Assembly (NCBI GenBank): GCA_964429225.1
Contig: CAYSAW010000002.1
Coordinates: forward strand, 33,293 to 97,292
Origin: an uncultured bacterium
GTDB taxonomy: Bacteria; Armatimonadota; DTGP01; CAYSAW01
Direction of reading: 5' to 3'
Length of the DNA stretch: 64,000 nucleotides
The stretch's first letter is position 1. Each line of letters begins with the position of its first letter. The position numbers and the translations under genes were made by a program. The notes under the pieces were generated by a model. The model did not search any database and was not told the origin of the DNA. It worked only from the letters and a program-made list of their open reading frames with translations. Positions 5,856 through 49,951 of this stretch are shown here, one piece after another.

Positions 5856-5888
5856 GTCACTTTAAGGGTTTAAGGAGGCGTTAGGTAT

Positions 5889-6635: not shown

Positions 6636-6842
6636 GTACACCTCCCTCTTCTTGAGAGGGATATCCTCAGAATTGCTGTGAACCGCTTAGGCCCCAGGTA
6701 AGTACTGCTCTATAAGGGGCCCTTTTCTTTAGCAGAAAACCTCCGAAAAGCCGAAACTCAGTTTTACTCCCGCTGAGGGAGGAAAAAGCTGGAAGCGATC
6801 AAGAATATAGAATTAAGCAAAAACTATAATGCGGAGGGAACT

Positions 6843-28131: not shown

Positions 28132-29664
28132 TTGTCAACCCTAAGGTGCTGTCTTTCCATCATTGGTATTCTGTTAATGACCCTCCTTCTCCCTTCAGGC
28201 TCAAAGGGGAGGGATGGTGCTGGAGGTATAAGGAGGGTACTTTTCCCTCCCCGGCTTCCACCAGCACAAAATTCCTCTCCTGGCCCCCTTGTGGAAGATA
28301 CTCCAAAGCCTTTACTCACTTCGGAGGAGGAAGCAGAAACCCTATTCTATTGGATAGGGCGCGTCAACCTTACTCACCTTGCTCTCCTCTCTGGTATGGG
28401 AGAACCTGCTCAATTCAGTACTGAAACTCTTCGAAGGCTAACTACCCTCTTAAAGACAGAAATTCCCTCAGGTTACTCTCTACTCCAGAATGTTTATCCC
28501 TCCTCCTATCCGTTATTGGCCTCTCAACCGGTAGCAACTAAGAGAGAAAGTTGGCGATGGACACCTGCTCAATTTGAAAAGAGTTACAATCCCGAAGCCA
28601 TCGCCCTAACCATCGTGAAGTTGGCCCAACCTCAGTTCCACCTCCAATACCACGATACTCCTGAGGATCAGAAAGAAGCCATCTTGGGATTAGCCAGTGC
28701 TATGGAGATGGCAAGCTTCCTCTACAACCGCTTGCGCGATGAGAAAGGACAATTTATCGCTCTTCCGCCTCATCCGAAAGCCCCTCCTGTCCGCTACCAA
28801 TCCGTTTGCCTTTGGGCTTTTTGTGCCCTGCTCTACCTCACCCAGGAAAAACAAGACAACTACTTTCATCGGTCTGCAAAGGAGATTCTCGACGCAAAAG
28901 CCCTTAAAAAGTGGGCAGAAAGGGCTTTCCAAACCCTGAGTCAAAGGGATTTCTCTTCAGTGGAGGATTTATCTTTAGCAATAGAATCGGTCGCTTGGTT
29001 TTCAGCGGTCTCCGAGGAAGCCTCCCGAAAGAAGGCTTTAGCTTTACTCAGCACTTTCGGTGAGAAAGTTCTGAGCTTGCCAGCAAGAACTCTGCAAGCC
29101 TTAGGGTTTAAAATCTACGCCCTCTACGAAGTCTACCGAGCTACCCGACGAGAATCCTTCCAGAAAGGGGCGGATTTCCTAATCACTAAAGAGTTAGAAC
29201 AATTTTGGAGGGAGGAAGCGGGTGCTTATCTGGAAAAATCAGGGGAAACCCTTTATACCCTTTGGCAAGCTGCTAGTCTCATGATGGCCCTCAATGCTGG
29301 CCGGCAATTCGGAAGCCCAGAGGCCCGGCAATTAGCTCGCTCCCGCTTTATCACCCTAGGGGAGACGCTCTTTTTGCGCTCCGGTCTCCAACGAGCCTCC
29401 GGGGTAGAGTTAATCCCAGAGGTTTACCGCCGCGAAGTTGCTCTTTTAGAGAAAGTAGACCGTATTTTACCTCGATCGAGTGACCTTAAGGAGGCTCCGG
29501 TATTCCGGGCTGGGGTTCGCTATATCGAAGGCCGATGGCAGATTCAATCGGGGCGCTTTATTACCGCACCGGCTATGTTGCTAGCCATTGCTTTGGCACC
29601 CAAAACAGGTCTCTCCCCCGATGGTTTTTCCCCTGCTCACCGCCTGAGACCCCCCTCCCCTTAA
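28132..29664 (+). CDS. Hypothetical secreted protein (510 aa)
   Basis: N-terminal hydrophobic signal (IIGILLMTLLLPSGS). No recognisable motif. Transcribed divergently from the GT4/AlkP-membrane operon. Confidence 0.5.
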   Translation: MSTLRCCLSIIGILLMTLLLPSGSKGRDGAGGIRRVLFPPRLPPAQNSSPGPLVEDTPKPLLTSEEEAETLFYWIGRVNLTHLALLSGMGEPAQFSTETLRRLTTLLKTEIPSGYSLLQNVYPSSYPLLASQPVATKRESWRWTPAQFEKSYNPEAIALTIVKLAQPQFHLQYHDTPEDQKEAILGLASAMEMASFLYNRLRDEKGQFIALPPHPKAPPVRYQSVCLWAFCALLYLTQEKQDNYFHRSAKEILDAKALKKWAERAFQTLSQRDFSSVEDLSLAIESVAWFSAVSEEASRKKALALLSTFGEKVLSLPARTLQALGFKIYALYEVYRATRRESFQKGADFLITKELEQFWREEAGAYLEKSGETLYTLWQAASLMMALNAGRQFGSPEARQLARSRFITLGETLFLRSGLQRASGVELIPEVYRREVALLEKVDRILPRSSDLKEAPVFRAGVRYIEGRWQIQSGRFITAPAMLLAIALAPKTGLSPDGFSPAHRLRPPSP

Positions 29665-35673: not shown

Positions 35674-36060
35674 CTACTCAATCGGTTTACGGCCAGCATA
35701 ACCCGACTGCAAATCATGCCAAAAAGCCACCTGCTCTTCGCCCAGTTCCCAACAGAGAAAGACCTCACGCCCCTTATAAAGGGCCGGAAAGTCCACTAAA
35801 CCGCGCTGGAGGTCTTTGCAAAAAGCTCCCATCTTATGGATCTGACTCACCAAGGAGTAGATCTGGGAACTCTTATCAAAGAATCCTCTGATCTTCTCGC
35901 CTCCACCGTTGCCCCAAATAGCCTTCTGAATCTGCTCCAGATTCTCCCGGGAGAGATCCATACTTCCCAGGATCTGATGGATCTCTTTGAAAATCTCACG
36001 AAGTCGGGGGAGGAGGCGGTTCGCCTCCTCCACAGTAAAGTGCTTCCTAAAGATCGGCAT
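35674..36060 (-). CDS. DUF2203-like small protein
   Basis: N-terminus MPIFRKHFTVEEANRLLPRLREIF and C-terminal CWELGEEQVAFWH resemble the DUF2203 family. From memory only. Confidence 0.45.
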   Translation of the reverse strand: MPIFRKHFTVEEANRLLPRLREIFKEIHQILGSMDLSRENLEQIQKAIWGNGGGEKIRGFFDKSSQIYSLVSQIHKMGAFCKDLQRGLVDFPALYKGREVFLCWELGEEQVAFWHDLQSGYAGRKPIE

Positions 36061-36103: not shown

Positions 36104-37171
36104 TCAAGGTTTTAGAGGCACGGGTGTTTTTTCGCCTTCCATTAACCACAAAGGTTGGCTCCAAGCAAAAGCTCCCTTAGACCCTTCCGCCTCCACCCGG
36201 ATATAACCCTCATCCCCTCTAACAGCGTACTCAGCACCATTCCCCTCCTCCACCTTCAGCTCGCGCCCCCAACGACCGATAAACCGAATACGTTGCCCAT
36301 TAGAAGTGACCACTCTTAAAGTCGAGTCTCGATATTCGAGCAGTGTAAAGTAAACCCCTGTTGAAGAGTAAAAACTTCCTTGTTGAATGGCCAAAAGGAT
36401 CTGCGAGGGATGAGGAGGGCCACTGAAGTTAGGCTCCAAGCCTACCATAATCCAACCCTGCCCTATATCCTCCCAGCGATGGGCGTCATCGGTAGCAAAT
36501 CCCCAAACCAGCCGACCCTCCGAAAGTAACTGATCCCATCGGTCCAAGGCATAAGGAGTCCCCTCTAACCGCCGAATAACCCCATTAAAAATTTCTATAC
36601 CCCAATATCCCTCCAAAGAGAACATATCGGGAAGGGGAAAATGGTTAAAATGAGTCTGCCATTTCGGATGATTAAGGATGGCAATACCTCCCTGCCTCTG
36701 AACTTGGTTGATGACCTCCTGACGATCTTTCGTTTTCTCTAAAGGTGAAGAAAGCCCCACACAGAGGATATGAGCTCCTCCTCCTGCTTCCAAGGCAGGA
36801 ATCAGAATCACGGGAGTACGATGGAGGACCTCCTGGGGATCCGTAAGGTGATCATGGTCGGAAAGAGCCAGAAAATCGTACCCTCGCTCCGCATAAAGAC
36901 GAACAAGATCCTCCGGAGCGTAAGCCCCATCGCTGTTAGTAGTATGGCTGTGAAGGTTACCCCGGTACCAACGCCTTCGGAGATGAGTCCAAGGTCCGAA
37001 AGAAACCTCCATTGAAGGAATCCACTCCTCAGAGAAATATTCAAATAGGGGTTCTGTTATCCCCGATAATCTTTTCCCTGAGAGCCTAGCGTATCCTTTA
37101 GAAAACACTGATGAAACTTCTTGTTCTTTGCTGTCGTCTAACATACGGAAAGTGAAATTCCTCCCTTGCAT
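36104..37171 (-). CDS. PHP-domain metallohydrolase (CehA/McbA-like)
   Basis: GNLHSHTTNSDGAYAPEDLV...GYDFLALSDHDH, PHP-domain His/Asp metal ligands. 355 aa. Confidence 0.75.
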   Translation of the reverse strand: MQGRNFTFRMLDDSKEQEVSSVFSKGYARLSGKRLSGITEPLFEYFSEEWIPSMEVSFGPWTHLRRRWYRGNLHSHTTNSDGAYAPEDLVRLYAERGYDFLALSDHDHLTDPQEVLHRTPVILIPALEAGGGAHILCVGLSSPLEKTKDRQEVINQVQRQGGIAILNHPKWQTHFNHFPLPDMFSLEGYWGIEIFNGVIRRLEGTPYALDRWDQLLSEGRLVWGFATDDAHRWEDIGQGWIMVGLEPNFSGPPHPSQILLAIQQGSFYSSTGVYFTLLEYRDSTLRVVTSNGQRIRFIGRWGRELKVEEGNGAEYAVRGDEGYIRVEAEGSKGAFAWSQPLWLMEGEKTPVPLKP

Positions 37172-37259
37172 TCTCGAAAACCTTCAAGGGGAGGCTTTTT
37201 GCATTAGAACCTTCTACCTCCGAGGGGCCATTCATCTCGCTCCACTACCGGGTTACTCG

Positions 37260-38525
37260 ATGATGAAGAACCACTCTCTTTTGCACAAGCGAACCAAAGG
37301 CTCTGCCCTCATCATCGCGATTTTTGTACTCGTCGTGCTTGTTGGATTGGTTGTTTCTCTAGGAGCGGGAAGCCGGGTTGAATTGAAGTCCGCTTCCAAT
37401 TTCGCTAATCGAACTCAAAGCCGAGCCTTGGCAGAAGCCGGCCTTAACCTGGCTATGGCTGTCCTCCAAAACGACTCCACTCCTGGTCAGGATGACTTAA
37501 CAGAAGATTGGGCTTTACTAGGGTCCTCGGGCACTGAAGTCTTCGATTTAGGGAATGGACACTTCCAAGTACAGATTATTGACGCGAGTTCGCGTTTAAA
37601 CGTGAACACCGCTACCCGGGAGCAACTCTTGACTCTGCCCGGGATGACCGAAGAGATCGCCGACTCTATCCTCGATTGGAGGGACAGTGACGACAACCCT
37701 CGCACCAATGGGGCTGAAGGTGAGTACTACCAAACCCTTCAGCATCCTTATAATCCCAAGAACGGGCCTTTTGACACCTTAGAAGAACTCCTTTTGGTTA
37801 AAGGGATGACCCCCTCTCTCCTCTACGGTGATCCAACGGAAGAGGTAACGGATACCTTTGGTCAGATTCAAAAACCTCTGGTAGAACTATTAACAGTCCG
37901 CTCCTACGAACGCAACGAAGATTCTTCCGGGCAAAGAAGACAAAACTTAAATAGCCTGGGGTTACAAGAACTGATGAGTCTACCCGACGCCAATCTTACC
38001 CAAGAACAAGCCCAGGCGATTATCCAACGACGAACACAAATCGGGCAATTCAACTCGGTAGCAGATCTATTAGACGTCAATGGATTAACTCCTGAAATTG
38101 TTGGCCGACTTTATGACCATCTTACCACAACCCAAGCAGAACGCCTAGAAGGGAGAATCAACATCAATACTGCGGATACGACTATTCTCTTAACCCTTCC
38201 TGGAATGACCGAAGAGATCGCCCAACAGATCGTTGATCGGAGGCCTTATGCCAATGTTGGCGAATTATTAACTGAGGGAGTGTTAAATGGCGAACAATTT
38301 CGACAAATAGCCCCTTGGCTTTGCACTAAATCTTCGATCTTTATTATTCGGAGCATCGGGTATCTTTCTACCACTTCAACCCCTTCGGGTAGGCCGGAGG
38401 GGTATGTTGCGCTAGAAGCCCTGGTGGAACGAACCGATAACGGGGTCCGGCTCCTCCGCAAAAAGGAGGTCCGCTGGTGGCCTGGTTGGAAATCTTGGGG
38501 CTGGGGTTTAGAGGGATCAACGTGA
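37260..38525 (+). CDS. GspK-like minor pseudopilin (type II secretion / type IV pilus system protein K)
   Basis: N-terminus KGSALIIAIFVLVVLVGLVVSL (GspK-type prepilin-like segment). Two helix-hairpin-helix-like repeats (LNVNTATREQLLTLPGMTEEIADSI... and ININTADTTILLTLPGMTEEIAQQI...). The track ORF starts at 37128, but the family N-terminus begins at MMKNHS. Confidence 0.7.
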   Translation: MMKNHSLLHKRTKGSALIIAIFVLVVLVGLVVSLGAGSRVELKSASNFANRTQSRALAEAGLNLAMAVLQNDSTPGQDDLTEDWALLGSSGTEVFDLGNGHFQVQIIDASSRLNVNTATREQLLTLPGMTEEIADSILDWRDSDDNPRTNGAEGEYYQTLQHPYNPKNGPFDTLEELLLVKGMTPSLLYGDPTEEVTDTFGQIQKPLVELLTVRSYERNEDSSGQRRQNLNSLGLQELMSLPDANLTQEQAQAIIQRRTQIGQFNSVADLLDVNGLTPEIVGRLYDHLTTTQAERLEGRININTADTTILLTLPGMTEEIAQQIVDRRPYANVGELLTEGVLNGEQFRQIAPWLCTKSSIFIIRSIGYLSTTSTPSGRPEGYVALEALVERTDNGVRLLRKKEVRWWPGWKSWGWGLEGST

Positions 38526-40309
38526 GCAAGCACAAGATTTTTTGGGGATTAGACCTAGGAAGTAGCGCGATTAAGCTCGTCCGCCTGGAAGAAACGGGCG
38601 ATGTTCTCAGTTTACAGACTTTCGGGCCTGTGCCCTTGGAATCCCCCTCCCTCCCTCTTCCGCAAGAACTTCTCATCTCTGGCTTAAAAAATCTGTTGGG
38701 GAGTCTTAACCGCCCCCCGAAAAGCGTGGTCGCCGCTCTCCCTCGGCATTTAGCAGTAGTCAAATTCCCAGCCCTCCCCAAAGCGGAGGAACCCCAGTTT
38801 GCCCAAATGGTGAAGCTAGAGGCTCAGCGATATGTCCCTTTTGCCCTCGAAGAGGTAGTCCTAGACTTCCACCCTTTAGGCTCTTTCCCCGATCCAGTTA
38901 TCTCAAAAGTACCTCGAGCAGAAAAAGAACGCATCCCCGAAACCGCCTCCTCAGGCTCTCCTCTAGCCGAAGTCTCCGGAGAAGTCCCCCAAGGCATATC
39001 CTCCCCTCCCTTGCCCTCAATGCCGGTAACTCCGGGGGTCTCGGAGTCCCTAGTGGAAGTCCTCCTCATCGCGGTTCAGCGAAACGTGGTCACCAACTAT
39101 TGGCGTGCTCTGAAAAGTGCCAATCTTCACTGTGAGCGATTAATGGTTAGCTCTCTTGGGTTAGCCTCCCTCTATCTTTATTCAGAAGCGGAGAATGCTC
39201 CTCCAGGAGTAGACCTGCTCTTGGATTTGGGGGGGCGGTCCACCGTTGTTACCGCCTTCAAAAAGGGGAAGATGATCTTCAACCGGGCGGCGACAGTAGG
39301 ATGCGATAGCCTTACCACCGCCTTGCAGTCAGATTTAAACATCAGCCTCTCTGAAGCCGAAGTCTGGAAGAGGGAACGAGGGCTAACTCTGCTCCAAAGC
39401 ACAACAGATTTACCCCATACTCAAAATTGGGTTCAAAACTTTCTCTCAGAAGTCCGCCGGTCGGTAGCTGCACTAACCTCAGAGCGAAGGGATGCAGTGC
39501 CCCAGCGAGTACTGATCGCCGGAGGAGGAGCCAAACTCCCCGCTTTAAGAGACTTGCTGGAGGAAGAGCTGGGTCTGCCCGTACTGCTTTTGCCTACCCA
39601 CTCTCTCCCGGCAGATCCTCAATTTATGGAAGCCACTGGACTGGCCCTTTTGGCCCTGTTGTCTCATAAGGACTCTTCAACCGCTTGCCCTTCTATCAAC
39701 CTTGTTCCTCCAGAGGTCGTTATTGAGGCTCAACGAAGCCGTCGGCTCCGGGTGATGCAAGGGGTGGGAACAGGGTTTGGAGTCCTTCTCCTTGCAGCAG
39801 GATATATTGGCTGGCAAAGCCTTCAGGAGAGAGCGGAAGAAGTGGCCCGGGTCCGGGCCGCCCAGCAAACTGTTCAACAGGTACAAAGGCAAGCCGATAC
39901 CATTAGCAAAAAAGTGAAAACTCTAGAAGAACAGATCGAGCTTCTAGAACCCACCCTTAATCCCAGTGCCACTTATCTCGATATTCTCAACGATATGGTC
40001 CAGCGAATGCCCGAGGGATTATGGTTAACCGGGATTACCTTAGAAAAGGGAAAACCTCTGGTTCTCCGAGGAACCGCTACCGGAAACGGCCCGATCGCCC
40101 AGTTTACCTCCGATCTGGGGAAATCCCCCTATCTCCAAGCCGTTACCCTCACCTACGCTAATGAGGCGACTATTGGAAACACCAAGGTCGTCCAGTTTGG
40201 GATTACCGCCCAAATTCGAGGCAATAAACCCAAACCCCAGAGAGTCCGTCGAGCTCGAACGCGTCCGGTAAGAGGTGCCAGCAGTGAGTCTGAGTCAACT
40301 CTCCGTTAG
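38522..40309 (+). CDS. PilM-PilN fusion protein (type IV pilus inner-membrane platform; GspL-like architecture)
   Basis: N-terminal actin-like PilM (IFWGLDLGSSAIKLVRLEE...). A later segment, INLVPPEVVIEAQRSRRLRVMQGVGTGFGVLLLAAGYIGW, matches the PilN N-terminal INLLP motif plus TM helix, followed by a coiled coil. A GTG at 38522 overlaps the gspK-like stop (GTGA); the alternative ATG is at 38477. Confidence 0.8.
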   Translation: MSKHKIFWGLDLGSSAIKLVRLEETGDVLSLQTFGPVPLESPSLPLPQELLISGLKNLLGSLNRPPKSVVAALPRHLAVVKFPALPKAEEPQFAQMVKLEAQRYVPFALEEVVLDFHPLGSFPDPVISKVPRAEKERIPETASSGSPLAEVSGEVPQGISSPPLPSMPVTPGVSESLVEVLLIAVQRNVVTNYWRALKSANLHCERLMVSSLGLASLYLYSEAENAPPGVDLLLDLGGRSTVVTAFKKGKMIFNRAATVGCDSLTTALQSDLNISLSEAEVWKRERGLTLLQSTTDLPHTQNWVQNFLSEVRRSVAALTSERRDAVPQRVLIAGGGAKLPALRDLLEEELGLPVLLLPTHSLPADPQFMEATGLALLALLSHKDSSTACPSINLVPPEVVIEAQRSRRLRVMQGVGTGFGVLLLAAGYIGWQSLQERAEEVARVRAAQQTVQQVQRQADTISKKVKTLEEQIELLEPTLNPSATYLDILNDMVQRMPEGLWLTGITLEKGKPLVLRGTATGNGPIAQFTSDLGKSPYLQAVTLTYANEATIGNTKVVQFGITAQIRGNKPKPQRVRRARTRPVRGASSESESTLR

Positions 40310-40841
40310 AGAAAAAATCCTCATCGCTTTAGCTCTCTTGGTCGCCCTTGTTTTCGGCATTCCCGCCTTACAAGGAATGTGGGATACCTTTGCTGGAACC
40401 GGAGGCCTAACAGTGGAAAAAGTACACCTCCAGCGCCAGCAACTCCAGCAAAAAATAACCCAACTCCAAGAAAGCGAAGAGCAGTTAAAAGGTAAAGTAG
40501 CCCAATTAGGTTATGAACAACCTGCAGAAACCATTATCCCTTTTCTTGTTCGCAAGATTGAGGCTCAGGCCCGAGCCGATCAGGTTCATCTTAATAGCCT
40601 TCGCCCTCTACGCCCCCGAAACCTAGAGGTGGTCACCGAAATCACCCTGGAAGTCCAACTCAAAGCCGATTTCCCCAACTTCGTTCGCTTCCTCTACGCC
40701 CTCTACGATCCGGAACTTAAACTCTCCATTGACCGAGTAAGAATCTCTTCCGGGAATGAAGAAACAGGGGAAGTAGATGTAGACCTCGCTCTCTCTGCCT
40801 ATTCTCTGAAGGCTTCCCCTACTTCCTCCAACCGCTCTTAA
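40275..40841 (+). CDS. PilO-like type IV pilus assembly protein
   Basis: Single N-terminal TM (ILIALALLVALVFGI), a coiled coil (LQRQQLQQKITQLQESEEQLKGKVAQL), then an alpha/beta domain. Sits immediately after PilMN. GTG start overlaps the upstream gene. Confidence 0.65.
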   Translation: MPAVSLSQLSVREKILIALALLVALVFGIPALQGMWDTFAGTGGLTVEKVHLQRQQLQQKITQLQESEEQLKGKVAQLGYEQPAETIIPFLVRKIEAQARADQVHLNSLRPLRPRNLEVVTEITLEVQLKADFPNFVRFLYALYDPELKLSIDRVRISSGNEETGEVDVDLALSAYSLKASPTSSNRS

Positions 40842-41069
40842 TAAGGTAAAATGAGCTAGAGCTAATAAAGGTCGAAAGGGGACCAAAAGATACCCTCCCT
40901 TGTAAGCAACTCTATCGAGAACTTCGGCATCTAACTTTTGGGATCACTAAGCAAGGAAGAACGTTAGAAGGGGAATTATTCCTCCTGGTAGCGTGACGTC
41001 TAGGGTAAAAATAACCTAATCCCCTGGAGATTGGCAGATGTAGAATAGCAAAGTTCTAGCGGCTGAGGG

Positions 41070-41903
41070 GTGGAAACAATGAAAATCATCAAGGGATGGA
41101 ACATTGTAGGGCTGATCATCCTTCTGTTGATCTCCTGCCTCAGCTGGATTTTCGCCCGCTCAAGTTCTCATCAACCTTTGCGGATTCCTTCTCCCCCAAA
41201 TTACTCCAAGGGAGGGAAACAGAATCCGAAGAAAGAGATCCACTTCAACGGCCATTCCCAAAGACAGATAGCCCGTTATTTACCGCTTCTCAAGAATAAT
41301 CCTTTTCTTCCTCCTTGGAAGAAAAGTCGAACGGTTTCTCCTCTCTCCTCGAATCCCCTAGGACCTCTTCCTCCCCTGGACCCCGCTCACTTGGAGCTCC
41401 GTAAAAATATTGTCTCCTCTTATAAAAACTGGGTTTACGCAGGTTATGCAGAAACAGAAGAAGGGCCTATAGCCCTACTAGAGCACCAGAAAACGAAGCA
41501 AGGGAGGTTTCTCTCTTTGGGAGGGCAATTGGAGGAAGCGAAGGTTTTCCTCCTTTCCCCCACAACCCTCTGGCTAACGGATCACGCTGGCAAGAAGTAC
41601 ATCCTTCCCTTAAACCAGCCCAACCTCTCCCCTCCCACTTCCAAAGAAGGCGCGAAAGGGGAAAAAGGGAAAAGTCCCGCAAGCAGTCCACCTAGTGGAG
41701 GAGGGTCTTCATCGGTTCCTGGGAACATCAATGCTCCTTATCTACCCCCACCGATAAAACCCTTTCCTCCCCAATCAGTAGGGCTGGATCAAGCTGGAAT
41801 CAAAAAACCCGTAGGGCTAGATCAAGAGGGTGCTAAAAAACTGGAAATCAATGGGGAACAAGGCTTCCAGCAACCGTTGCCTATGAAGATCGAAAAACAG
41901 TAA
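41070..41903 (+). CDS. Hypothetical membrane-anchored, proline-rich protein; possible PilP analogue
   Basis: N-terminal TM (IVGLIILLLISCLSWIF). Pro-rich low-complexity C-terminus with a tandem 11-aa repeat, VGLDQAGIKKP / VGLDQEGAKKL. Sits in the PilP position between pilO and the secretin. Confidence 0.4.
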   Translation: METMKIIKGWNIVGLIILLLISCLSWIFARSSSHQPLRIPSPPNYSKGGKQNPKKEIHFNGHSQRQIARYLPLLKNNPFLPPWKKSRTVSPLSSNPLGPLPPLDPAHLELRKNIVSSYKNWVYAGYAETEEGPIALLEHQKTKQGRFLSLGGQLEEAKVFLLSPTTLWLTDHAGKKYILPLNQPNLSPPTSKEGAKGEKGKSPASSPPSGGGSSSVPGNINAPYLPPPIKPFPPQSVGLDQAGIKKPVGLDQEGAKKLEINGEQGFQQPLPMKIEKQ

Positions 41904-41925
41904 GGGCTAAAACAACCTTCTTCTC

Positions 41926-44604
41926 TTGAAAGAAAAGCGAGGGAGGCAAAGTATGGATAGGAAGGTGGTGCTAATGCGTGGGACCCCTTTACTCTTAGCT
42001 ATTTATCTTTCAATCTGTTGGAGTTTTGCCCAACAAAAACCTGAGGGAAACATCCCTTCGGGAACTTCCCCCTCTCCTCAAAGCTCAACGACACAACCCG
42101 GTTTCTCAGGGGTTCCTAGCTCCGGAGCTAGGTCCCCCCAGTCCTCTTCTTCTTCAAGCAAGCAACATCCTCCCTCTCCTAACCTAGCCCAAATTTTAGG
42201 CCCCCTCCCCCGGAAGATGGTCTCAATGGATTTTCGGGGAGCGGATATAGACAATGTGCTCCTCTTTTTCAGTATGCAATCCGGAATTACCATTCTCAAG
42301 GACCCCTCTCTCACTGGCCCGGTAACGTTAATTAACGCTCGAAAGATCCCTCTACTCGAAGCTTTCCGGATTCTTGAAGCCGTACTTAACCAGAAGAACT
42401 TCACTCTTCGGCGAGAAGGCCCTCTTTTAAGAGTGGTGCCGAAAGGCCCCCCTCCTCAGCCAAGCCCCCCCTCTCAGGGCCCCCAACCTCTGACTCCTTC
42501 GCCAGAGCCGAAGAAAGAGAAGGAGACGAAGGTCTATCCTCTCAAGTACGCCAGCGCTCGGGCGGTAGCCAATATTATTAACGAGCTCTTCCGAGAAGGC
42601 CCTGCTCCCGGTGAACCGGGTGGCCCACCCAAAGGCCCTCCTCCCGGCGGTCCGCCCGGAGGCCCACCCGGACAACAGCAGCAAAAACCTTCTGCCAAAG
42701 CCTCAGCTGACGACTTCACCAATTCCGTTTTGGTAGTGGCCGATCGGGAATTGATACCCGATATCGATAAAGTCGTCCAGCAAGTGGATCAACCAACGGA
42801 GACCCCTCTGGAAACCCGGGTTTTCACCCTCCAATATGCGGATGCCACTGAGATGGCTTTGCAAATTGGCCCTATCCTCCAAACTCTACAGTCTGCCGGC
42901 CGAGGAGCGGTAACCCCCACAGGAACGGACGTTCCTTTTGAGCGCCGGATCTTCTTCGGTTCCTCTGCCCCTATCAGCATCGCAGGAGGCCGGGTGATCG
43001 CCGATGTACGCACCAACTCCCTCATCATCACCGCCTCTAAAGAAGTGCTTGATAAAATTGAAGACATCATTAAAAAGCTGGATGTTCCTGTAGAATATCA
43101 GACTACTACGGAGGTCATCCCTCTGAAAAATGCGGACGCCTCGGAGGTCACCTTCTTACTAGGGCAACTCTTCCAGGAACAACGTCGGCCCCAAAGCTTC
43201 TTCGAATTCCTCTTCTTTGGAGGCCCACAGCAGCAGAGAGGTCAAACGCGCCAACGCTTCCGACTAGGGGACCCCCGATCTAGCCGGCCACGAACCCAAA
43301 GGGGTTCCTCCTTCTTCCTCCCTGGCGCTTCCCAAGAACGGCTGAACAATGAGGAAGGCTTTCTTATGGCAAGCCTCTTCCCTCCTGGCGAACTTCCGAA
43401 TGAAGAGCGTGGGGCTTTTGCTCGGCCTTTCTCCCTTTCTCAAGGGAAAGGCCCCACCCGAGAAGCAGAACGACTGCTTCAACGGTTAAAATCTCTTGCT
43501 ATACGGTCGGGGAGGGGTTATCCCTTTTCCCAAACCTCTTCCAACCCCCCAGAGGAAGAGGACCAAGAAGTAGACCCCTCGTCGTTTGAGTTTGAACCTG
43601 CCCAGTTTTTTGGCTTTGAACTTCCCCGCCGCGGTTCTGAAACCCAAGTGGGCCGAGATCCCCAAGGGCGTATCCGCCCTCTCGTCAATCTTCCCGGCAA
43701 TGTGACCATTGTTCCCGATCTCAATACCAATAGCCTCATCATCAATACTAGCCCCTCCAATATGGAGGCCCTGAAACAGTTGATCAGCCAGATTGACATT
43801 GTCCCTGCCCAAGTTCTCATTGAGGCCATTATCGTTGAAGCAGTCCTCGATAAATCCAGCAAGTTAAGCCTGCGTTTGAATCTAACCGAGACGAATCCTT
43901 TTGGGCAACAAGGAGCAGGAGCCACCACAACAATAGACCTCCCCATAGGTGGAGGGGTACAGGGAGGGTTAAGATATAGCATCGTTGGGGCGTCCTTTGA
44001 CGCTCTCCTCCAAGCCTTACGCAGTGACCGAAGGTTTAATGTCCTGCAAACTCCCCGGATCCTAACCCAAAACAACCGCCAAGCAGCGATCAACATCAGC
44101 CAGGCCTTTCCTATTCTACGGTCCACAGCAACCTTTGGAGCAGCTGCTACCAACATTGATTTCATTGATATTGGGGTTATCCTTGATGTAACCCCTCATA
44201 TTACCCCGGGTGATTATGTGAACATTGAGGTAAGCCAAGAGGCCAATGAAATCCAAGGTTTTACCACCCTGAACAACAACCAAGTGCCCATCATCGCCCA
44301 GCGTAATACTGAAACCACAGTAACAGTGAAAGATGGTCAAACTATTATTATCAGTGGTTTGATCAAAGATACCGTCACTCGAAACGAAAACCGGATACCT
44401 ATCTTAGGTGACATCCCCTTGATCGGTCGCCTTTTCCGGTCTATAGACAAACAAAGAAGCAAAACAGAGTTAATGATTTTCCTAACCCCTCATATTGTCA
44501 AAAACCCAGCGGAAGTCCAAGATTTGACTTTTAAGCAGAGGGAGCAACTCCACGTAAAGCCCCGGTTCCCCGAAGAAGGCCCCCCGGAGAAGAAAAAACC
44601 TTAA
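41926..44604 (+). CDS. Secretin (PilQ/GspD family) with long low-complexity insertions
   Basis: C-terminal secretin domain: NVLQTPRILTQNNRQAAINISQAFPIL...TIIISGLIKDTVTRNENRIPILGDIPLIGRLFRS...KTELMIFLTPHIV. N-terminal N-domains are present. A Gly/Pro insert PGEPGGPPKGPPPGGPPGGPPGQQQQ lies at about 42600-42700. Confidence 0.85.
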   Translation: MKEKRGRQSMDRKVVLMRGTPLLLAIYLSICWSFAQQKPEGNIPSGTSPSPQSSTTQPGFSGVPSSGARSPQSSSSSSKQHPPSPNLAQILGPLPRKMVSMDFRGADIDNVLLFFSMQSGITILKDPSLTGPVTLINARKIPLLEAFRILEAVLNQKNFTLRREGPLLRVVPKGPPPQPSPPSQGPQPLTPSPEPKKEKETKVYPLKYASARAVANIINELFREGPAPGEPGGPPKGPPPGGPPGGPPGQQQQKPSAKASADDFTNSVLVVADRELIPDIDKVVQQVDQPTETPLETRVFTLQYADATEMALQIGPILQTLQSAGRGAVTPTGTDVPFERRIFFGSSAPISIAGGRVIADVRTNSLIITASKEVLDKIEDIIKKLDVPVEYQTTTEVIPLKNADASEVTFLLGQLFQEQRRPQSFFEFLFFGGPQQQRGQTRQRFRLGDPRSSRPRTQRGSSFFLPGASQERLNNEEGFLMASLFPPGELPNEERGAFARPFSLSQGKGPTREAERLLQRLKSLAIRSGRGYPFSQTSSNPPEEEDQEVDPSSFEFEPAQFFGFELPRRGSETQVGRDPQGRIRPLVNLPGNVTIVPDLNTNSLIINTSPSNMEALKQLISQIDIVPAQVLIEAIIVEAVLDKSSKLSLRLNLTETNPFGQQGAGATTTIDLPIGGGVQGGLRYSIVGASFDALLQALRSDRRFNVLQTPRILTQNNRQAAINISQAFPILRSTATFGAAATNIDFIDIGVILDVTPHITPGDYVNIEVSQEANEIQGFTTLNNNQVPIIAQRNTETTVTVKDGQTIIISGLIKDTVTRNENRIPILGDIPLIGRLFRSIDKQRSKTELMIFLTPHIVKNPAEVQDLTFKQREQLHVKPRFPEEGPPEKKKP

Positions 44605-44673
44605 CCCCTCGGATGGGTTTGGTAGCTGACCCTTTAGGGGTAGGTTAGTAGCCCCTATAATCCCCTGTCAACG

Positions 44674-44713
44674 GGGATGGTAGCTGCAGGCTAAAGCTTG
44701 CAGCTACCATCCC
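44674..44713. terminator. Strong 15-bp hairpin between convergent secretin and GH38 genes (candidate bidirectional terminator or attenuator)
   Basis: gggatggtagctgca-ggctaaagct-tgcagctaccatccc, a perfect 15-bp stem. Flanking sequence is not markedly T-rich, so function is uncertain. Confidence 0.4.
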
Positions 44714-44805: not shown

Positions 44806-47706
44806 TTATCCAATAAGAACCGTTACCAAACCGAAAGCGGGAATATCTACGCTCAGAACTCCCCCTTCTAACTTCGCTGTGTTTTGGGACAAAGGTCGCT
44901 CTAAAAGATCTGTTTCCACTGCTAAGGCATTTGGTAGGGCCAAAATTTCATCCAACTGAACCTGCGCTCGAGTCGGTTTTCCCTCCACCTCGTAAAGGCG
45001 GAGGACCAAAGCCTCCGAGTCCTCCGCCTTTTTCATCCCGCTTAACATAACATTCGGGGTAAGAAGATGGAGAAAACCTTTACGGGGAGGCAAAGTACCC
45101 TTCTGTGTTGTCGTAGCCACTACATTAAAGGGGAGGTTGAAATCGAAGCCCGCTCGAGTGGAATGAGCAGGCGTCCACTCGCCGATATGCGGTCGAAGGG
45201 CAAAACGGATACAATGATGCCCTAGCTCCGGCAGAGGATCGGGGTCATAGCTACTCCGTAAAAGGGAAAGGCGGAGGGTACTCCCCTGCACACTGTGGCC
45301 ATACTTGGAGTCATTCAAAAGAGTAACCCCTACAGGCTCTGGAGTATCAGGATGTTTTCCGGTTAAATCTACCCATTTTTGGGCAGGAACATCCGGTGGC
45401 CCCTCAGGGATAGCAATGCCTTGGGGAGGTGACCACTTCCAGGTATAAGTGGTTAACTGACGCGGGTCAGTAGACCGTTCCACATAACCATTAGGGCACT
45501 CAAAGGTAGCCTTGCCCTCTTGAAGCGCTAAGGGAAAAACAACCCTAAGTAGGGGAACCCCGCTTTCCGGATCCCCACGCTCTAACCAATCTATCTCCAA
45601 AGTAAAATCCACCCGAGGCACTCCCGAGGCCAAAGAAATGCTCAGAACAAAACGACTTTGGTTGAACCGATGGGAAGCCCGAATTGTCGCAAGATAAGGG
45701 CCTCTTTGAGGAAATTCCAAAATGGCTCCTTCTAAAAAAGGAATCGTCTTAATAATCTGGCCGATAACCCAGGCAGTCATCCCATGAGGCGCTTCCAAGG
45801 AATACTCCAAGAAACCTATTCGTTCTCCTGGGGGAACGAAGTCAATCCCTGTCTTCTTATCTATCAGGTGTCGAATCGCTCCCGAACTTTGATCCACTTC
45901 CACCAAGAAAAACTCGTTTTCAATCCGGCCTCGGCCATCCCCTCTGCATCCTTCCACCTTCCGAGGAAGAGGAGACCGTCCGATACTATAATTGCGGTAG
46001 CCTAATCCACCTACCTGGTGGGCAGGGAAAGCGACCTCGATAAAAGAATGCCCCCAATAATGCCCCCGCTGGATAAATTGGGCAGGGAAAAGGTTCCCCT
46101 GATCATCCTTAACAAGGATCTGATCGCTTGGGTAAGAACGATCCCAGATCCGTGCGGTTACAACCTCAGACCTTTCCCAAGGGCTGGGGTTAAAAACGAC
46201 AAAAGGGTCACAGCCCACTTCCCCTGCCGACCACCGGGTCACCGCTCCGTCCGCGGGAAGGTCTCCTGGGCCAGCTCCTATACCTGGGCCGACTCGTGGA
46301 GGGGAAACCCTTTCAGAAACCCCTTCACAAAGGCAGGAAGCAGAAGTGTCCACTCGGGTAGCGATAGAACGAAGGGCTCGAGTCTTGATCATCGAGGTGT
46401 GGGTAAGGATTTCCTGGAAGAGTCCTTGGGCGTAATCCCGAGTAGCCGGGACACCGGAACCAGGAAGAATATCATGGAACTGATTGAACATTGCATACTT
46501 CCAGGCAGTATGGAGAGCGGAGGAGGGATAAGGTAACCCCACGATCCCTCGAGCCAAGAGGGCGTATATCTCAGCCTCCACTAAAGCATTCTCACTCTTT
46601 CGATTGGCGTATTTGATTCGGCTCTGAGAGGTATAGCAGCCCTCAAAGACGAAGTTCAGCTCCGAGTTAACAACAGGCAAGTTCTTCGCCTTCGCCTCCG
46701 CAATTTGGAAAAATTCCTGCACCGTACTCAGCTTAACCCGGGGATAAAGGGGCCAAGAGTTCATCTTAAGAGCGTTTTCCAGGTCCCTGCGCGTAGGACC
46801 TCCACCGTGGTCTCCTACACCGAAAACAAAGAGGTAGTCCTTTAAACCTGTCTCCTTCTCAAATTCAAAGATCAGTCGGGTAAGATCGTGGGTAATAGCT
46901 CCATTGTACCAGAGAATGCTATCATCAAAAGCGAGAACTCGGGAACCATCTTTCCCTTGCCACCAAAAGAGCTTCTGGCCCTGACCTGCCCGGCAAAAGT
47001 AATAGTACTTCACTCCTGCCTTGGTCAATAGGGTAGGCAGAGTGTGGGAATGTCCAAAGGTATCCGGTTCCCAGTCCACCTTAACCGCGTCATAGGGAAT
47101 ACCCAGCTCCTCTTTAAAGAAACGTTTGGTATAAAGGAGGTGCCGGCACAGGATTTCACCCGAGGCTAAATTTTTATCTCCTTCCACCCAGTGATTGGCA
47201 GTAACTTCCCATCGCCCCTCCGCTATCCTCTGCTTTATCCTCTCCCATAGCTCAGGCAAATAATCTTTAACCAGCTGATAAACCGAGGCCTGACTCTGGG
47301 AAAAACGGAAGTCCGGAAACTCCTCCATCAAGCGATCTACGGTTAAAAAGGTATCATACGTGGTTGCCACTGTTTCGGGCCACCCCCACATCCAGTTCAT
47401 ATCAATATGGGCGTGGCCCACACAGTGCACTGTGTATTCTTTGGCTACCTGGCTGAGAGGAGCCATCAAATTCTCCGCTTGGGTGACTACCTCCTCAAGA
47501 GGAGTCCCTTTTGATAGCTCCTCCTCAACATAGTCGAGAGCTCGAGCGATAAGCTCCTCCCATTCAGGTTGCTGATCCGGATGAGCTTGAGCGAGCCGGC
47601 AAGCAAAATCCACCTCGAGCTGAAAACGTTCGAGCCACTCCTTTGAATGTTCGCCCCACTGACCAATCAACCGTAACTTCTGATCCACCGTTTCAAGGAA
47701 AGACAT
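44806..47706 (-). CDS. Glycoside hydrolase family 38 (alpha-mannosidase)
   Basis: HCVGHAHIDMNWMWGWPETV, the GH38 N-terminal catalytic signature. 966 aa, typical of bacterial GH38. Confidence 0.88.
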   Translation of the reverse strand: MSFLETVDQKLRLIGQWGEHSKEWLERFQLEVDFACRLAQAHPDQQPEWEELIARALDYVEEELSKGTPLEEVVTQAENLMAPLSQVAKEYTVHCVGHAHIDMNWMWGWPETVATTYDTFLTVDRLMEEFPDFRFSQSQASVYQLVKDYLPELWERIKQRIAEGRWEVTANHWVEGDKNLASGEILCRHLLYTKRFFKEELGIPYDAVKVDWEPDTFGHSHTLPTLLTKAGVKYYYFCRAGQGQKLFWWQGKDGSRVLAFDDSILWYNGAITHDLTRLIFEFEKETGLKDYLFVFGVGDHGGGPTRRDLENALKMNSWPLYPRVKLSTVQEFFQIAEAKAKNLPVVNSELNFVFEGCYTSQSRIKYANRKSENALVEAEIYALLARGIVGLPYPSSALHTAWKYAMFNQFHDILPGSGVPATRDYAQGLFQEILTHTSMIKTRALRSIATRVDTSASCLCEGVSERVSPPRVGPGIGAGPGDLPADGAVTRWSAGEVGCDPFVVFNPSPWERSEVVTARIWDRSYPSDQILVKDDQGNLFPAQFIQRGHYWGHSFIEVAFPAHQVGGLGYRNYSIGRSPLPRKVEGCRGDGRGRIENEFFLVEVDQSSGAIRHLIDKKTGIDFVPPGERIGFLEYSLEAPHGMTAWVIGQIIKTIPFLEGAILEFPQRGPYLATIRASHRFNQSRFVLSISLASGVPRVDFTLEIDWLERGDPESGVPLLRVVFPLALQEGKATFECPNGYVERSTDPRQLTTYTWKWSPPQGIAIPEGPPDVPAQKWVDLTGKHPDTPEPVGVTLLNDSKYGHSVQGSTLRLSLLRSSYDPDPLPELGHHCIRFALRPHIGEWTPAHSTRAGFDFNLPFNVVATTTQKGTLPPRKGFLHLLTPNVMLSGMKKAEDSEALVLRLYEVEGKPTRAQVQLDEILALPNALAVETDLLERPLSQNTAKLEGGVLSVDIPAFGLVTVLIG

Positions 47707-48517: not shown

Positions 48518-49807
48518 TTATTCCCCCAGCATCACATCCCCAAATTGGGAGGCGTCCAAGGTAGACCCTCCTAACCCTCCACCCCACTCAAGCCAACCCC
48601 GAATCCGACCTTTATCCTCATCCTGAAGGCGGATAGCAAGGCGGAGAGGTTGACCCGGAGAAGGGCGAAAAGGCTCGAGCACAGACCACGGAAGGCGTGC
48701 TGAATAAAAAGTTTGGTCCTCCTTCCGGACTACTAAAAGAGTACTCCCCATCAACTCCCTGCCCTCTCCCCTTCGAATTCGCGACGTCTTGCCTATATTT
48801 CGGGCGGACAAAATCAACCGAACCGGCTTAGCCTCCCGGGGCGAGAGTGAAGGCAAGCAAAGGCCTATTTCTATTTGATCCCCAGGACTCCAGTCATTAT
48901 CTTTCGCCACAGCGAAAAGATAGAGGTATTGCTCATCCCACTGAAGACGAAGGCTTCCTGCGATATCTCCGGGCCCCCCAAAACCTTGAACCCCTGGAGC
49001 AGAAACTGGCTTGCTAATCAGCAGAGAAGGAATCTCCTCCCATCCCTTAAAGGAAACTTCCCCCGAAGGAGGCACCGAGGCTCGAGGAATAGCGAAAAAA
49101 GTTAGGTTCCTGGAGAAGGTTTTCCGAAAACCTTCCCAGGTTTCTAAACGAGCTGTAAAGCGATAAGCAACCCCAGGTGCCATTCCTCCCGCCAGAGGGA
49201 TGGATACCTTTGTGGATTGGCCCGGATCGAGGTCAAGGAGGGAGGAAACGATATCCTGAAGCAAACGATTAGGATTACTTAAAACCACCCTCCCTTTTAG
49301 CCTCCGAAGGGGATGAGGATTACCCACCCATACTTGAACCGCACCCTTGAGGGGATCAGGAATGAGCTCCAGGAGAGGGATCACTATCCTTATTCCATAA
49401 GCCGATTCCCCTAACCGCCTCCCTCCGGAGAGAACTTCCACCTTAACAGAGTAGGTTCCTGGAGAAAGGCCTTCAGCAGAGAAGAATTTGGGGAAAAATT
49501 TCGCTCCCCAAACTGGCAACCGACCAGCCCAACCCTCGGGGGAAACCCTCAGACCTGGCGGACAAAGGATCCGAGCCGAAGCTTGGGGTATCGTTCGTCC
49601 CGAGAGATTCACTAAAGTAACGGTTGCGGGATAAGCTTCTCCTGGTGCTAAAGTCAGCATCTCAGGAGAAAAATGCACCGACACCCTTAGGGAACCCAAG
49701 ACCCTTGTTTCTTGAGGAGGGCGTAACCTCTGAACCGCCTCCCCTGCCCCAACGGGGTGGAAAGGAAGGCCTAAAACCAGAGCTAAAAGGCAAAGAACTT
49801 TTTTCAT
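48518..49807 (-). CDS. Hypothetical secreted protein (about 430 aa)
   Basis: Signal peptide MKKVLCLLALVLGLPFHPVGAGEA at an internal Met. The track ORF starts at 49909. Beta-rich composition, no motif recognised. Confidence 0.5.
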   Translation of the reverse strand: MKKVLCLLALVLGLPFHPVGAGEAVQRLRPPQETRVLGSLRVSVHFSPEMLTLAPGEAYPATVTLVNLSGRTIPQASARILCPPGLRVSPEGWAGRLPVWGAKFFPKFFSAEGLSPGTYSVKVEVLSGGRRLGESAYGIRIVIPLLELIPDPLKGAVQVWVGNPHPLRRLKGRVVLSNPNRLLQDIVSSLLDLDPGQSTKVSIPLAGGMAPGVAYRFTARLETWEGFRKTFSRNLTFFAIPRASVPPSGEVSFKGWEEIPSLLISKPVSAPGVQGFGGPGDIAGSLRLQWDEQYLYLFAVAKDNDWSPGDQIEIGLCLPSLSPREAKPVRLILSARNIGKTSRIRRGEGRELMGSTLLVVRKEDQTFYSARLPWSVLEPFRPSPGQPLRLAIRLQDEDKGRIRGWLEWGGGLGGSTLDASQFGDVMLGE

Positions 49808-49951
49808 CCTTAGTAGATTCTCTCTCCTAGAACTCTTTCGGCACGAAAGAAGGTTTATCCTATAAGGGACTATCCTCCTTATGTCGAAGCTCTCTCCTGG
49901 AGAAAACAAGTCTTGGAGGCTTACTCTTTTTCTTTCTAAGGAGCGGACACG

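What the first reader, a model, noticed from the sequence alone, without database searches (positions are those of the whole stretch)
36104..44713. Type IV pilus / T2SS-like envelope cluster: GspK-like, PilM-PilN fusion, PilO, Pro-rich PilP-like protein, secretin
Gene order gspK-like, pilMN, pilO, orf, secretin with overlapping start/stop codons indicates one operon. No major pilin, PilB/PilT ATPase or PilC platform gene lies within the window. A GspK-type minor pseudopilin directly upstream of pilM is an unusual arrangement. The two DUF1559 prepilin-like genes elsewhere in the window may supply pseudopilin substrates.
Basis: partly seen in the sequence, partly recalled or inferred. Interest (0 to 1): 0.5.

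Follow-up and report, generated by a model that had tools for sequence, protein, structure and literature searches.

The report
Split-off half of a type II secretion operon
Five same-strand genes encode the envelope-spanning half (tip pseudopilin, inner-membrane assembly platform, outer-membrane pore) of a type II secretion system of a kind common in Armatimonadota and Planctomycetota; it is real and under selection, but ordinary.

Summary
The five genes exist, but at 37263-44604 (+). The stretch 36104-37171 is an unrelated minus-strand PHP/CehA-type hydrolase gene. Profiles identify GspK (above NCBIfam's equivalog cutoff), a PilM-PilN fusion, a PilO/GspM-like protein and a GspD-class secretin (above the GspD cutoff, below PilQ's). 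The unannotated Pro-rich ORF is a GspC/PilP homology-region protein, shown by family profile hits and a confident AlphaFold domain whose top 12 PDB matches are all PilP or GspC.

The "unusual" GspK-before-PilM order is not unusual. PilM+PilN is the accepted equivalent of GspL, so the order is K-L-M-C-D. Three relatives carry one operon, gspE-F-G-H-I-J-K-PilMN-PilO-C-secretin. In this Armatimonadota lineage the operon is broken after J, so the ATPase, platform and pseudopilins must lie outside the window, which holds none.

dN/dS against an 88-92% identical relative is 0.07-0.12 for four genes, the same as housekeeping controls, so this is not a decayed copy. Only the first two junctions overlap; a 237-nt gap precedes the GspC-like gene. 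T2SS in Armatimonadetes was already reported computationally (Denise et al. 2019). Verdict: a new member of a known kind, of low to moderate interest. Secretion itself is untested.

The parts
37263..38525 (+). gspK-like minor (tip) pseudopilin, 420 aa. It has a class-III leader (KG|SALIIAIF, no Glu at +5) and an alpha-domain with three HhH units starting at residues 112, 227 and 299.
   Evidence: NCBIfam T2SS_GspK NF037980 scores 161.8 bits (cutoff 130). Pfam gives T2SSK_1st, T2SSK and HHH_3. PDB sequence match to P. aeruginosa XcpX 5vtm. Gene call; HhH units. 765 or more homologs with the same architecture.
38522..40309 (+). pilM-pilN fusion, the functional equivalent of GspL: a cytoplasmic actin-like PilM domain, an INLVPPE junction motif, a TM segment and a periplasmic PilN domain. 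The start is GTG 38522 (4-nt GTGA overlap with gspK) or GTG 38477 (the gene-caller's choice, 610 aa).
   Evidence: Pfam PilM_2 94.4 bits and PilN 49.5 bits, both above cutoff. TIGR01175 pilM scores 129.6 against a cutoff of 133. No T2SSL or GspL_C hit. Alignment A1; junction motif; start sites.
40284..40841 (+). pilO/gspM-like bitopic inner-membrane protein, 185 aa, overlapping pilMN by 26 nt.
   Evidence: Pfam T2SSM_b 30.0 bits (cutoff 21.7) and PilO 29.7 bits (cutoff 22). NCBIfam GspM_XpsM E 2.9e-10 but below cutoff. TM segment at residues 5-34.
40842..41078 (.). 237-nt intergenic gap inside the cluster. No terminator-like site on the + strand and no Rfam match. About 65-70% identical to the 269-nt gap of relative L014.
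41079..41903 (+). gspC/pilP-like protein, 274 aa: N-terminal TM anchor, NPF motif, a beta-sandwich homology-region (HR) domain at about residues 115-180, and a disordered Pro-rich tail (18% Pro). No PDZ domain.
   Evidence: No Pfam hit. 10 of 11 family members hit NCBIfam GspC_delta, best E 5.3e-10. AlphaFold pLDDT 93-95 for the HR domain. The top 12 Foldseek PDB hits are all PilP or GspC/PulC/LspC, TM-score 0.71-0.78 and rmsd 2.2-2.7 A for the domain-sized chains. The family profile picks out the positional equivalents in L003, L011 and L010.
41953..44604 (+). GspD-class secretin, 883 aa: signal peptide, Ser/Pro-rich linker, N0, Pro-rich linkers, three Secretin_N domains, an insert of about 170 aa, and the secretin core.
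   Evidence: TIGR02517 type_II_gspD scores 393.1 bits (cutoff 351). TIGR02515 PilQ scores 256.4, below its cutoff of 284. Pfam gives type_II_gspD_N0, 3x Secretin_N and Secretin. 43% identical to the L003 secretin.
36104..37171 (-).
   Evidence: NCBIfam NF038032 scores 94 bits (cutoff 80); Pfam PHP. Minus-strand ORF.

Best explanation
The cluster is the distal sub-operon, gspK-gspL(PilM-PilN fusion)-gspM(PilO-like)-gspC(PilP-like)-gspD, of a type II secretion system of the non-proteobacterial kind found in Armatimonadota, Planctomycetota and allied lineages.

Inferred mechanism, from established T2SS and T4P knowledge:
- The secretin forms the outer-membrane pore.
- The GspC-like protein, anchored in the inner membrane, contacts the secretin's N0 domain through its HR domain.
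- The PilMN fusion and the PilO-like protein form the inner-membrane assembly platform. Its cytoplasmic actin-like domain docks the GspE ATPase.
- GspK, with GspI and GspJ, caps and primes a short GspG pseudopilus that pushes folded periplasmic proteins out through the pore. This genome is rich in glycoside hydrolases, which are plausible cargo.

The ATPase, platform protein GspF, pseudopilins G/H/I/J and the prepilin peptidase must be encoded elsewhere. In this lineage the ancestral single operon E-F-G-H-I-J-K-L-M-C-D has been broken between J and K.

Shown here: gene identities, conserved order, the split, and purifying selection. Inferred: the physical interactions and the secretion function.
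For: - GspK and GspD pass NCBIfam equivalog cutoffs (161.8 against 130; 393.1 against 351). PilQ does not pass its own.
- The PilMN fusion has PilM_2 and PilN domains in one chain, which is the GspL architecture. The PilM+PilN = GspL equivalence is stated in PMC4471445 and PMC10191384.
- orf5 is a GspC/PilP HR-domain protein.
- Loci L010, L011 and L012 carry T2SSE-T2SSF-T2SSG-GspH-pseudopilin-T2SSJ-GspK-PilMN-PilO-orf-secretin as one co-directional array, with no PilT. L010's K, MN, O and D are homologous to the window's proteins (E 1e-8 to 1e-67), and the orf between O and D matches the orf5 profile.
- L009 ends at F-G-H-I-J-K, L013 has K-MN-O alone, and L003-5 and L014 have K-MN-O-C-D alone. 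The operon is therefore fragmented in different ways among the relatives examined: the window's own lineage and the Armatimonadota MAG L013, plus L009 (bacterium HR17) and the metagenomic L003-5, whose phyla I did not establish.
- dN/dS against L014 is 0.067 (K), 0.079 (MN), 0.123 (O), 0.373 (C) and 0.074 (D). Housekeeping and neighbour controls give 0.066-0.111.
- The taxon is Armatimonadota, a phylum in which T2SS were reported computationally by Denise et al. 2019.
Against: - The window contains no GspE, F, G, H, I, J or O, so completeness of the system in this genome is not shown.
- The L-equivalent matches PilM/PilN profiles, not T2SSL/GspL_C.
- The M-equivalent scores about equally on PilO and T2SSM_b and is below the NCBIfam GspM cutoff. 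The C-equivalent is far below the GspC_delta cutoff and lacks a PDZ domain. Three of the five proteins therefore sit between T4aP and T2SS families by sequence.
- I found no report of a T2SS of this lineage being tested experimentally, and no substrate is known.
- Co-transcription across the 237-nt gap is not shown.
Confidence: 0.8

Rival explanations
1. It is the PilMNOPQ-type alignment and secretin module of a type IVa pilus or competence pilus, with a GspK-like minor pilin. It would build a surface or DNA-uptake filament rather than secrete proteins.
For: - The Pfam best hits for three proteins are PilM_2, PilN and PilO.
- The top fold hits for orf5 are PilP structures, ahead of GspC.
- JGI names relatives 'type IV pilus assembly protein PilM' and 'DNA uptake protein ComE-like'.
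- GspK's middle HhH unit passes the ComEA HhH-repeat cutoff: TIGR00426 54.6 bits against 53.1.
Against: - The secretin passes the GspD cutoff but not the PilQ cutoff. It has N0 plus three Secretin_N domains, and no AMIN family appears among its Pfam hits.
- GspK passes the T2SS equivalog cutoff.
- PilM and PilN are fused as in GspL.
- The orf5 lipobox-like Cys is not conserved even in the 67% identical homolog, so it is TM-anchored like GspC rather than a lipoprotein like PilP.
- Related complete operons carry T2SSG, GspH and T2SSJ pseudopilins and a single ATPase, with no PilT.
Confidence: 0.13
2. It is an orphaned, decaying remnant of a T2SS whose ATPase and pseudopilin half has been lost, and it has no function.
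For: No partner genes lie within 64 kb. The operon is fragmented in this lineage.
Against: - All five ORFs are intact.
- dN/dS is 0.07-0.12 for K, MN, O and D, equal to housekeeping controls.
- The same five-gene module is retained at 38-50% protein identity in a distant relative with different flanks.
- L009 shows the complementary half, F-G-H-I-J-K, surviving on its own elsewhere.
Confidence: 0.04

Closest known systems
Canonical proteobacterial T2SS (Klebsiella Pul, Vibrio Eps, Pseudomonas Xcp: gspC-D-E-F-G-H-I-J-K-L-M)
   Same: GspK with an alpha-domain and no Glu5. A GspD secretin with N0-N3. A GspC-type HR domain on a TM-anchored protein. A bitopic L-type protein with a cytoplasmic actin-like domain and a periplasmic ferredoxin-like domain, followed by an M-type partner. 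The K-L-M gene order.
   Different: The L-equivalent is recognisably PilM+PilN by sequence and keeps a PilN-like N-terminal motif (INLVPPE) at the junction. gspC and gspD lie at the end of the operon rather than the start. GspC has a Pro-rich tail instead of a PDZ or coiled-coil domain. GspK has a third, ComEA-like HhH unit. No GspN or pilotin is seen. The operon is split, with E-J elsewhere.
Single-operon T2SS of uncultured relatives (L010 GCA_026416715.1, L011 Planctomycetota GCA_042569785.1, L012 metagenome)
   Same: The same gene families in the same order, K-PilMN-PilO-C-like-secretin. K, MN, O and D are homologous by BLASTP, and C by profile.
   Different: Those loci have gspE-F-G-H-I-J immediately upstream of K. 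In the window, K is preceded by a divergent PHP hydrolase gene.
T4aP alignment subcomplex PilMNOPQ (Pseudomonas, Neisseria, Myxococcus)
   Same: Homologous domains throughout: PilM_2, PilN, PilO, the PilP fold and the secretin. The order M-N-O-P-Q is collinear with L-M-C-D.
   Different: PilM and PilN are one polypeptide. The PilP-like protein lacks a conserved lipobox. The secretin is GspD-class and no AMIN family was among its hits. The module is preceded by a GspK-type pseudopilin. No PilT is present in the related full operons.
Akkermansia Amuc_1098-1102 pilus-like cluster (Amuc_1101 family PilM-like protein)
   Same: A long PilM-plus-PilN-like fused protein: NCBIfam Amuc_1101_fam E 4.3e-40 over residues 193-535.
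   Different: The score of 138 bits is far below the family cutoff of 650. The secretin matches Amuc_1098_fam only over its last 90 residues. Not a member.

Membership tests
T2SS (system level) | GspD-class secretin (N0-N1-N2-N3 plus secretin core) | tested here: met
   TIGR02517 scores 393.1 bits (cutoff 351.35). Pfam gives type_II_gspD_N0, 3x Secretin_N and Secretin.
T2SS (system level) | GspK minor pseudopilin with an inserted alpha-domain and no Glu5 | tested here: met
   NF037980 scores 161.8 bits (cutoff 130). T2SSK_1st and T2SSK hits. Leader KG|SALII with Ile at +5.
T2SS (system level) | GspL: one bitopic chain with a cytoplasmic actin-like domain and a periplasmic ferredoxin-like domain | tested here: inconclusive
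   The architecture is present: PilM_2 and PilN in one 595-aa chain with a TM segment between them. There is no hit to T2SSL or GspL_C profiles. No structure prediction was run for this protein.
T2SS (system level) | GspM | tested here: inconclusive
   Pfam T2SSM_b 30.0 bits (cutoff 21.7) and PilO 29.7 bits (cutoff 22) are both passed. NCBIfam GspM_XpsM scores 40.1, below its cutoff of 60.
T2SS (system level) | GspC: a TM-anchored protein with an HR domain that binds secretin N0 | tested here: met
   HR fold at pLDDT 93-95. Matches GspC/PulC chains 3oss_C and 6hcg_e (TMt 0.72-0.78) and PilP. 10 of 11 family members hit GspC_delta. The sequence score is below the curated cutoff, there is no PDZ domain, and binding was not tested.
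T2SS (system level) | GspE ATPase, GspF platform, GspG major pseudopilin, GspH/I/J and GspO peptidase in the same genome | not testable with these tools
   None is in the 64-kb window. The rest of the genome (a 538-kb contig exists) could not be read. These genes are present next to the module in relatives L010, L011 and L012.
T2SS (system level) | Secretes folded periplasmic proteins across the outer membrane | not testable with these tools
   Needs genetics and secretome analysis.
T4aP (PilMNOPQ) | PilQ-class secretin (AMIN domains, N0-N1) | tested here: not met
   TIGR02515 scores 256.4, below its cutoff of 284.35. No AMIN family is among the Pfam hits for this protein at E <= 0.1. Three Secretin_N domains.
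T4aP (PilMNOPQ) | Separate PilM and PilN polypeptides | tested here: not met
   A single ORF with no stop, conserved as a fusion in P0002-P0004 and in L010, L012 and L013.
T4aP (PilMNOPQ) | PilP lipoprotein | tested here: inconclusive
   The fold matches PilP. The LLIS-C lipobox-like Cys21 is replaced by Gly in the closest homolog and is absent from the other members aligned.
T4aP (PilMNOPQ) | Retraction ATPase PilT and major pilin PilA associated with the system | not testable with these tools
   None is in the window or in the related operons viewed. T4aP genes are normally scattered, so the whole genome is needed.
ComEA-type DNA-binding HhH proteins | ComEA HhH repeat region | tested here: met
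   TIGR00426 scores 54.6 bits (cutoff 53.1) at residues 229-289 of GspK. Full-length comEA TIGR01259 scores 62.3, well below its cutoff of 152. DNA binding was not tested. By my recollection, the GspK alpha-domain itself belongs to the HhH superfamily.

The most novel reading that the evidence does not exclude
The extra, ComEA-grade helix-hairpin-helix unit in the tip pseudopilin GspK (residues ~227-290) binds extracellular or periplasmic DNA. HHH_3 is recorded for nearly all of the 120 homologs listed, of 765 found. In that case this widespread Armatimonadota/Planctomycetota 'T2SS' would be, or would double as, a DNA-capture or DNA-uptake pseudopilus. A milder version: the PilM-PilN fusion, which keeps a PilN-type N-terminal motif, is a surviving intermediate showing how GspL arose from PilM and PilN.
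Probability: 0.07. Interest if true: 0.7.

Novelty: new member of a known kind. Interest (0 to 1): 0.25.

Why it matters
It corrects an apparent oddity into a rule. In Armatimonadota, Planctomycetota and allied lineages the T2SS operon runs E-F-G-H-I-J-K-L-M-C-D, with a PilM-PilN fusion in the GspL position and a PDZ-less GspC just before the secretin. In some lineages this operon is cut into sub-operons.

That is useful for annotation. The Pro-rich ORF, which carries no name or Pfam record in the sources seen here, can be named GspC/PilP-like. 'PilM' and 'ComE-like' labels in these loci are misleading.

It also gives evolutionary accounts of the T4aP-to-T2SS transition a natural example of the PilMN fusion. 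It does not reveal a new kind of machine.

Tried and rejected
- Exact look-up of the secretin (883 aa) found nothing on record. The module was reached through the PilMN protein instead.
- The word-indexed homology search for orf5 gave only one homolog. A full HMMER scan was needed.
- A single-sequence AlphaFold model of orf5 was too poor to use (pLDDT 52). The 10-sequence alignment fixed the HR domain.
- A profile search of the orf5 family against PDB sequences gave only chance hits to propionyl-CoA carboxylase. The relationship is visible only by fold and through NCBIfam GspC_delta.
- The genome-contig scan returned just three short Armatimonadota MAG contigs. It settled the taxon but added no new context.
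- The promoter/terminator scan and the Rfam scan of the cluster gave nothing that bears on operon structure. The 237-nt gap is only moderately conserved.
- The decayed-copy reading was rejected on dN/dS.
- The lipoprotein reading of orf5 was rejected on non-conservation of the Cys.
- The Amuc_1101 and Amuc_1098 family assignments were rejected because the scores are far below the cutoffs.
- I could not read the rest of the source genome, so the partner genes were not located.
Full report
**What is there**

ORF listing and the gene calls on identical Logan contigs place five co-directional genes on the + strand:
- gspK-like, 37263-38525
- a pilM-pilN fusion, 38477 or 38522-40309
- pilO/gspM-like, 40284-40841
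- a 274-aa Pro-rich ORF, 41079-41903
- a secretin, 41953-44604

The finding's start coordinate, 36104, is actually the 3' end of a minus-strand 355-aa gene (36104-37171). That gene encodes a PHP/CehA-McbA family metallohydrolase (NF038032, 94 bits against a cutoff of 80). It is transcribed divergently from gspK across a 91-nt spacer, and it is not part of the system.

Junctions:
- K/MN overlap by 4 nt (GTGA) or 49 nt, depending on which GTG is used.
- MN/O overlap by 26 nt.
- O and orf5 are separated by 237 nt.
- orf5 and the secretin are separated by 49 nt.

So 'overlapping start/stop codons' is true only for the first two junctions. No + strand terminator-like site and no Rfam family lies in the gap. 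Co-transcription remains plausible but unshown.

**Identities**

- GspK: NCBIfam T2SS_GspK scores 161.8 bits (cutoff 130), with Pfam T2SSK_1st, T2SSK and HHH_3. The leader is KG|SALIIAIF, without Glu at +5. It matches P. aeruginosa XcpX in the PDB. It has three 'N-x-N-T/S ... LPG' HhH units, starting at residues 112, 227 and 299. The middle one just passes the ComEA HhH-repeat cutoff (TIGR00426, 54.6 against 53.1).
- The 595/610-aa protein carries PilM_2 (94 bits) and PilN (49.5 bits) in one chain. The junction reads ...CPS-INLVPPE-VV..., followed by a Gly-rich hydrophobic segment. By my recollection it resembles the conserved N-terminal INLLP peptide of PilN that binds PilM; this was not tested here. 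The fusion is conserved in all four close relatives.
- The 185-aa protein passes both Pfam T2SSM_b and PilO, and is below the NCBIfam GspM cutoff.
- The secretin passes the GspD equivalog cutoff (393.1 against 351) but not the PilQ cutoff (256.4 against 284). It has a GspD-type N0 and three Secretin_N domains.

**The unannotated ORF**

orf5 has no Pfam hit, and only one homolog turned up by word search. A full HMMER scan of 1.84 billion representatives found nine more distant relatives. The alignment shows a TM anchor, an RN(L/P)F-x-P motif and a conserved block, W-x-Y-x-G-x-A...A...G.

- Ten of eleven members hit NCBIfam GspC_delta (best E 5.3e-10), and two hit Pfam T2SSC. All are below the curated cutoffs.
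- AlphaFold with the 10-sequence alignment gives pLDDT 93-95 for blocks spanning about residues 121-170, within a domain of roughly residues 115-180. The tail is disordered.
- Foldseek against the PDB returns PilP (P. aeruginosa, N. meningitidis, M. xanthus) and GspC/PulC/LspC HR domains as the top 12 hits. For the domain-sized chains, TM-scores are 0.71-0.78 and rmsd 2.2-2.7 A.
- The lipobox-like LLIS-C is not conserved, being Gly in the 67% identical homolog. The protein is therefore TM-anchored like GspC rather than lipidated like PilP.
- There is no PDZ domain.

**Why the gene order is not unusual**

Reviews state that PilM+PilN corresponds to GspL, PilO to GspM, and PilP to the GspC HR domain (PMC4471445 and PMC10191384). 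Read that way, the window's order is K-L-M-C-D.

The GspK protein has at least 765 homologs at E<1e-10. HHH_3 is recorded for all 120 listed and T2SSK_1st+HHH_3+T2SSK for nearly all of them. They are named from Armatimonadota, Planctomycetota, Phycisphaerales and Fervidibacter. Their neighbourhoods settle the question:
- L010 (GCA_026416715.1), L011 (Planctomycetota GCA_042569785.1) and L012 (a metagenome) each carry one array: T2SSE-T2SSF-T2SSG-GspH-pseudopilin-T2SSJ-GspK-PilMN-PilO-orf-secretin.
- L010's K, MN, O and D are BLASTP homologs of the window's proteins.
- A profile of the orf5 family picks out exactly the gene lying between the O-like gene and the secretin in L003, L011 and L010.
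- No PilT is present in those arrays.

**The split**

The array is broken in different places in the loci examined:
- L003-5 (38-50% identity) and L014 (88-92% identity) have K-MN-O-C-D alone, with different flanks.
- L013, an Armatimonadota MAG, has K-MN-O alone.
- L009 (bacterium HR17) has F-G-H-I-J-K and stops there.

Genome-collection hits to the PilMN fusion are all Armatimonadota MAGs. The 64-kb window itself has no GspE-type Walker A. Its only class-III leaders are GspK and the two DUF1559 proteins. The partner genes must therefore be elsewhere, and I could not read the rest of the genome.

**Is it functional?**

Values below are against the syntenic relative L014.

| Gene | dN/dS |
|---|---|
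| gspK | 0.067 |
| pilMN | 0.079 |
| pilO/gspM-like | 0.123 |
| secretin | 0.074 |
| gspC-like | 0.373 |
| malic enzyme (control) | 0.066 |
| deformylase (control) | 0.111 |
| GH38 (control) | 0.078 |

The module is under ordinary purifying selection. The GspC-like protein evolves fastest, as its weak sequence similarity already suggested.

**Mechanism (inferred from the families)**

- The secretin forms the outer-membrane pore.
- The GspC-like HR domain couples the secretin to the inner-membrane platform.
- The PilMN fusion and the PilO-like protein form that platform and recruit the ATPase through the actin-like domain.
- GspK caps and primes the pseudopilus that expels folded periplasmic proteins.

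Several glycoside hydrolases lie nearby (GH38, GH106-like, GH65). They are plausible but unproven cargo.

**Rivals**

- A T4aP or Com-type filament machine is the main rival (0.13). It rests on the PilM/N/O/P-leaning sequence affinities and the ComEA-like HhH unit. The evidence against it is the secretin class, the GspK class, the fused L-type protein, and the composition of the related full operons.
- A decaying remnant is unlikely (0.04), given the dN/dS values and the deep conservation of the module.

**Comparison and novelty**

T2SS in Armatimonadetes were already detected computationally by Denise et al. 2019 (PMC6668835). JGI already labels many relatives PulK/GspK. This locus is therefore a new member of a known kind.

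The modestly interesting points are:
- a sequence-recognisable PilM-PilN fusion in the GspL slot;
- a terminal C-D arrangement with a PDZ-less GspC;
- a third HhH unit in GspK;
- lineage-specific fragmentation of the operon.

The related operons carry their own T2SSG-type major pseudopilin.

Noticed in passing
window 21539-22168 and 22200-24536; window 5217-7547: Each DUF1559 prepilin-like gene sits next to other functions. The one at 21539-22168 is followed 32 nt later by a GH65-family glycoside hydrolase gene. The one at 6843-7547 follows a candidate ABC-transporter pair: 5889-6635 holds the window's only ORF-borne Walker A, and 5217-5855 looks like a permease by eye but was not profiled. 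L009 also has a DUF1559 gene about 2.5 kb from gspK. Whether DUF1559 proteins are pseudopilins, cargo or substrate-binding modules is unknown.
   Followed up: partly
window 38522-40309, residues ~120-175 of the PilMN fusion: A Pro/Ser-rich insertion of about 55 aa (PDPVISKVPRAEKERIPETASSGSPLAEVSGEVPQGISSPPLPSMPVTPGVSE) sits inside the actin-like PilM domain. It is present in the window and in the 88% relative, and largely absent from P0003 and P0004.
   Followed up: no
window 41953-44604, secretin residues ~410-590, also ~25-75 and ~165-245: The secretin carries long low-complexity stretches: a Ser/Pro-rich N-terminus, Pro/Gly-rich linkers between N0 and the next domain, and an Arg/Phe/Gly-rich insert of about 170 aa before the secretin core. 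This insert is only patchily conserved in L003.
   Followed up: no
window 44806-47706 (-) versus L014 16675-19575 (+): The GH38 alpha-mannosidase gene downstream of the secretin is inverted relative to the cluster in the 88-92% identical relative. This points to a recent local rearrangement right at the end of the module.
   Followed up: no
window 40842-41078: A 237-nt non-coding gap lies inside an otherwise tight cluster. In the distant relative L003 the same junction is a 4-nt overlap. The gap is about 65-70% identical to L014's 269-nt gap, with a few conserved blocks (GCATCTAACTT, CAGGGTAAAA). It could hold an internal promoter or a regulatory site.
   Followed up: partly
window 36104-37171 (-) and 35674-36060 (-): A CehA/McbA-type PHP metallohydrolase and a DUF2203 protein lie divergent to gspK. 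The pair is kept next to the module in L014, where the PHP gene is called 56 aa shorter at 299 aa. It is absent from L003, so there is no evidence of a functional link.
   Followed up: partly
window 48518-49909, 24542-26893, 28132-29664, 11368-13323, 3759-4730: Five sizeable ORFs (323-783 aa) have no Pfam hit at E<=0.001. Several have signal-peptide-like N-termini.
   Followed up: no
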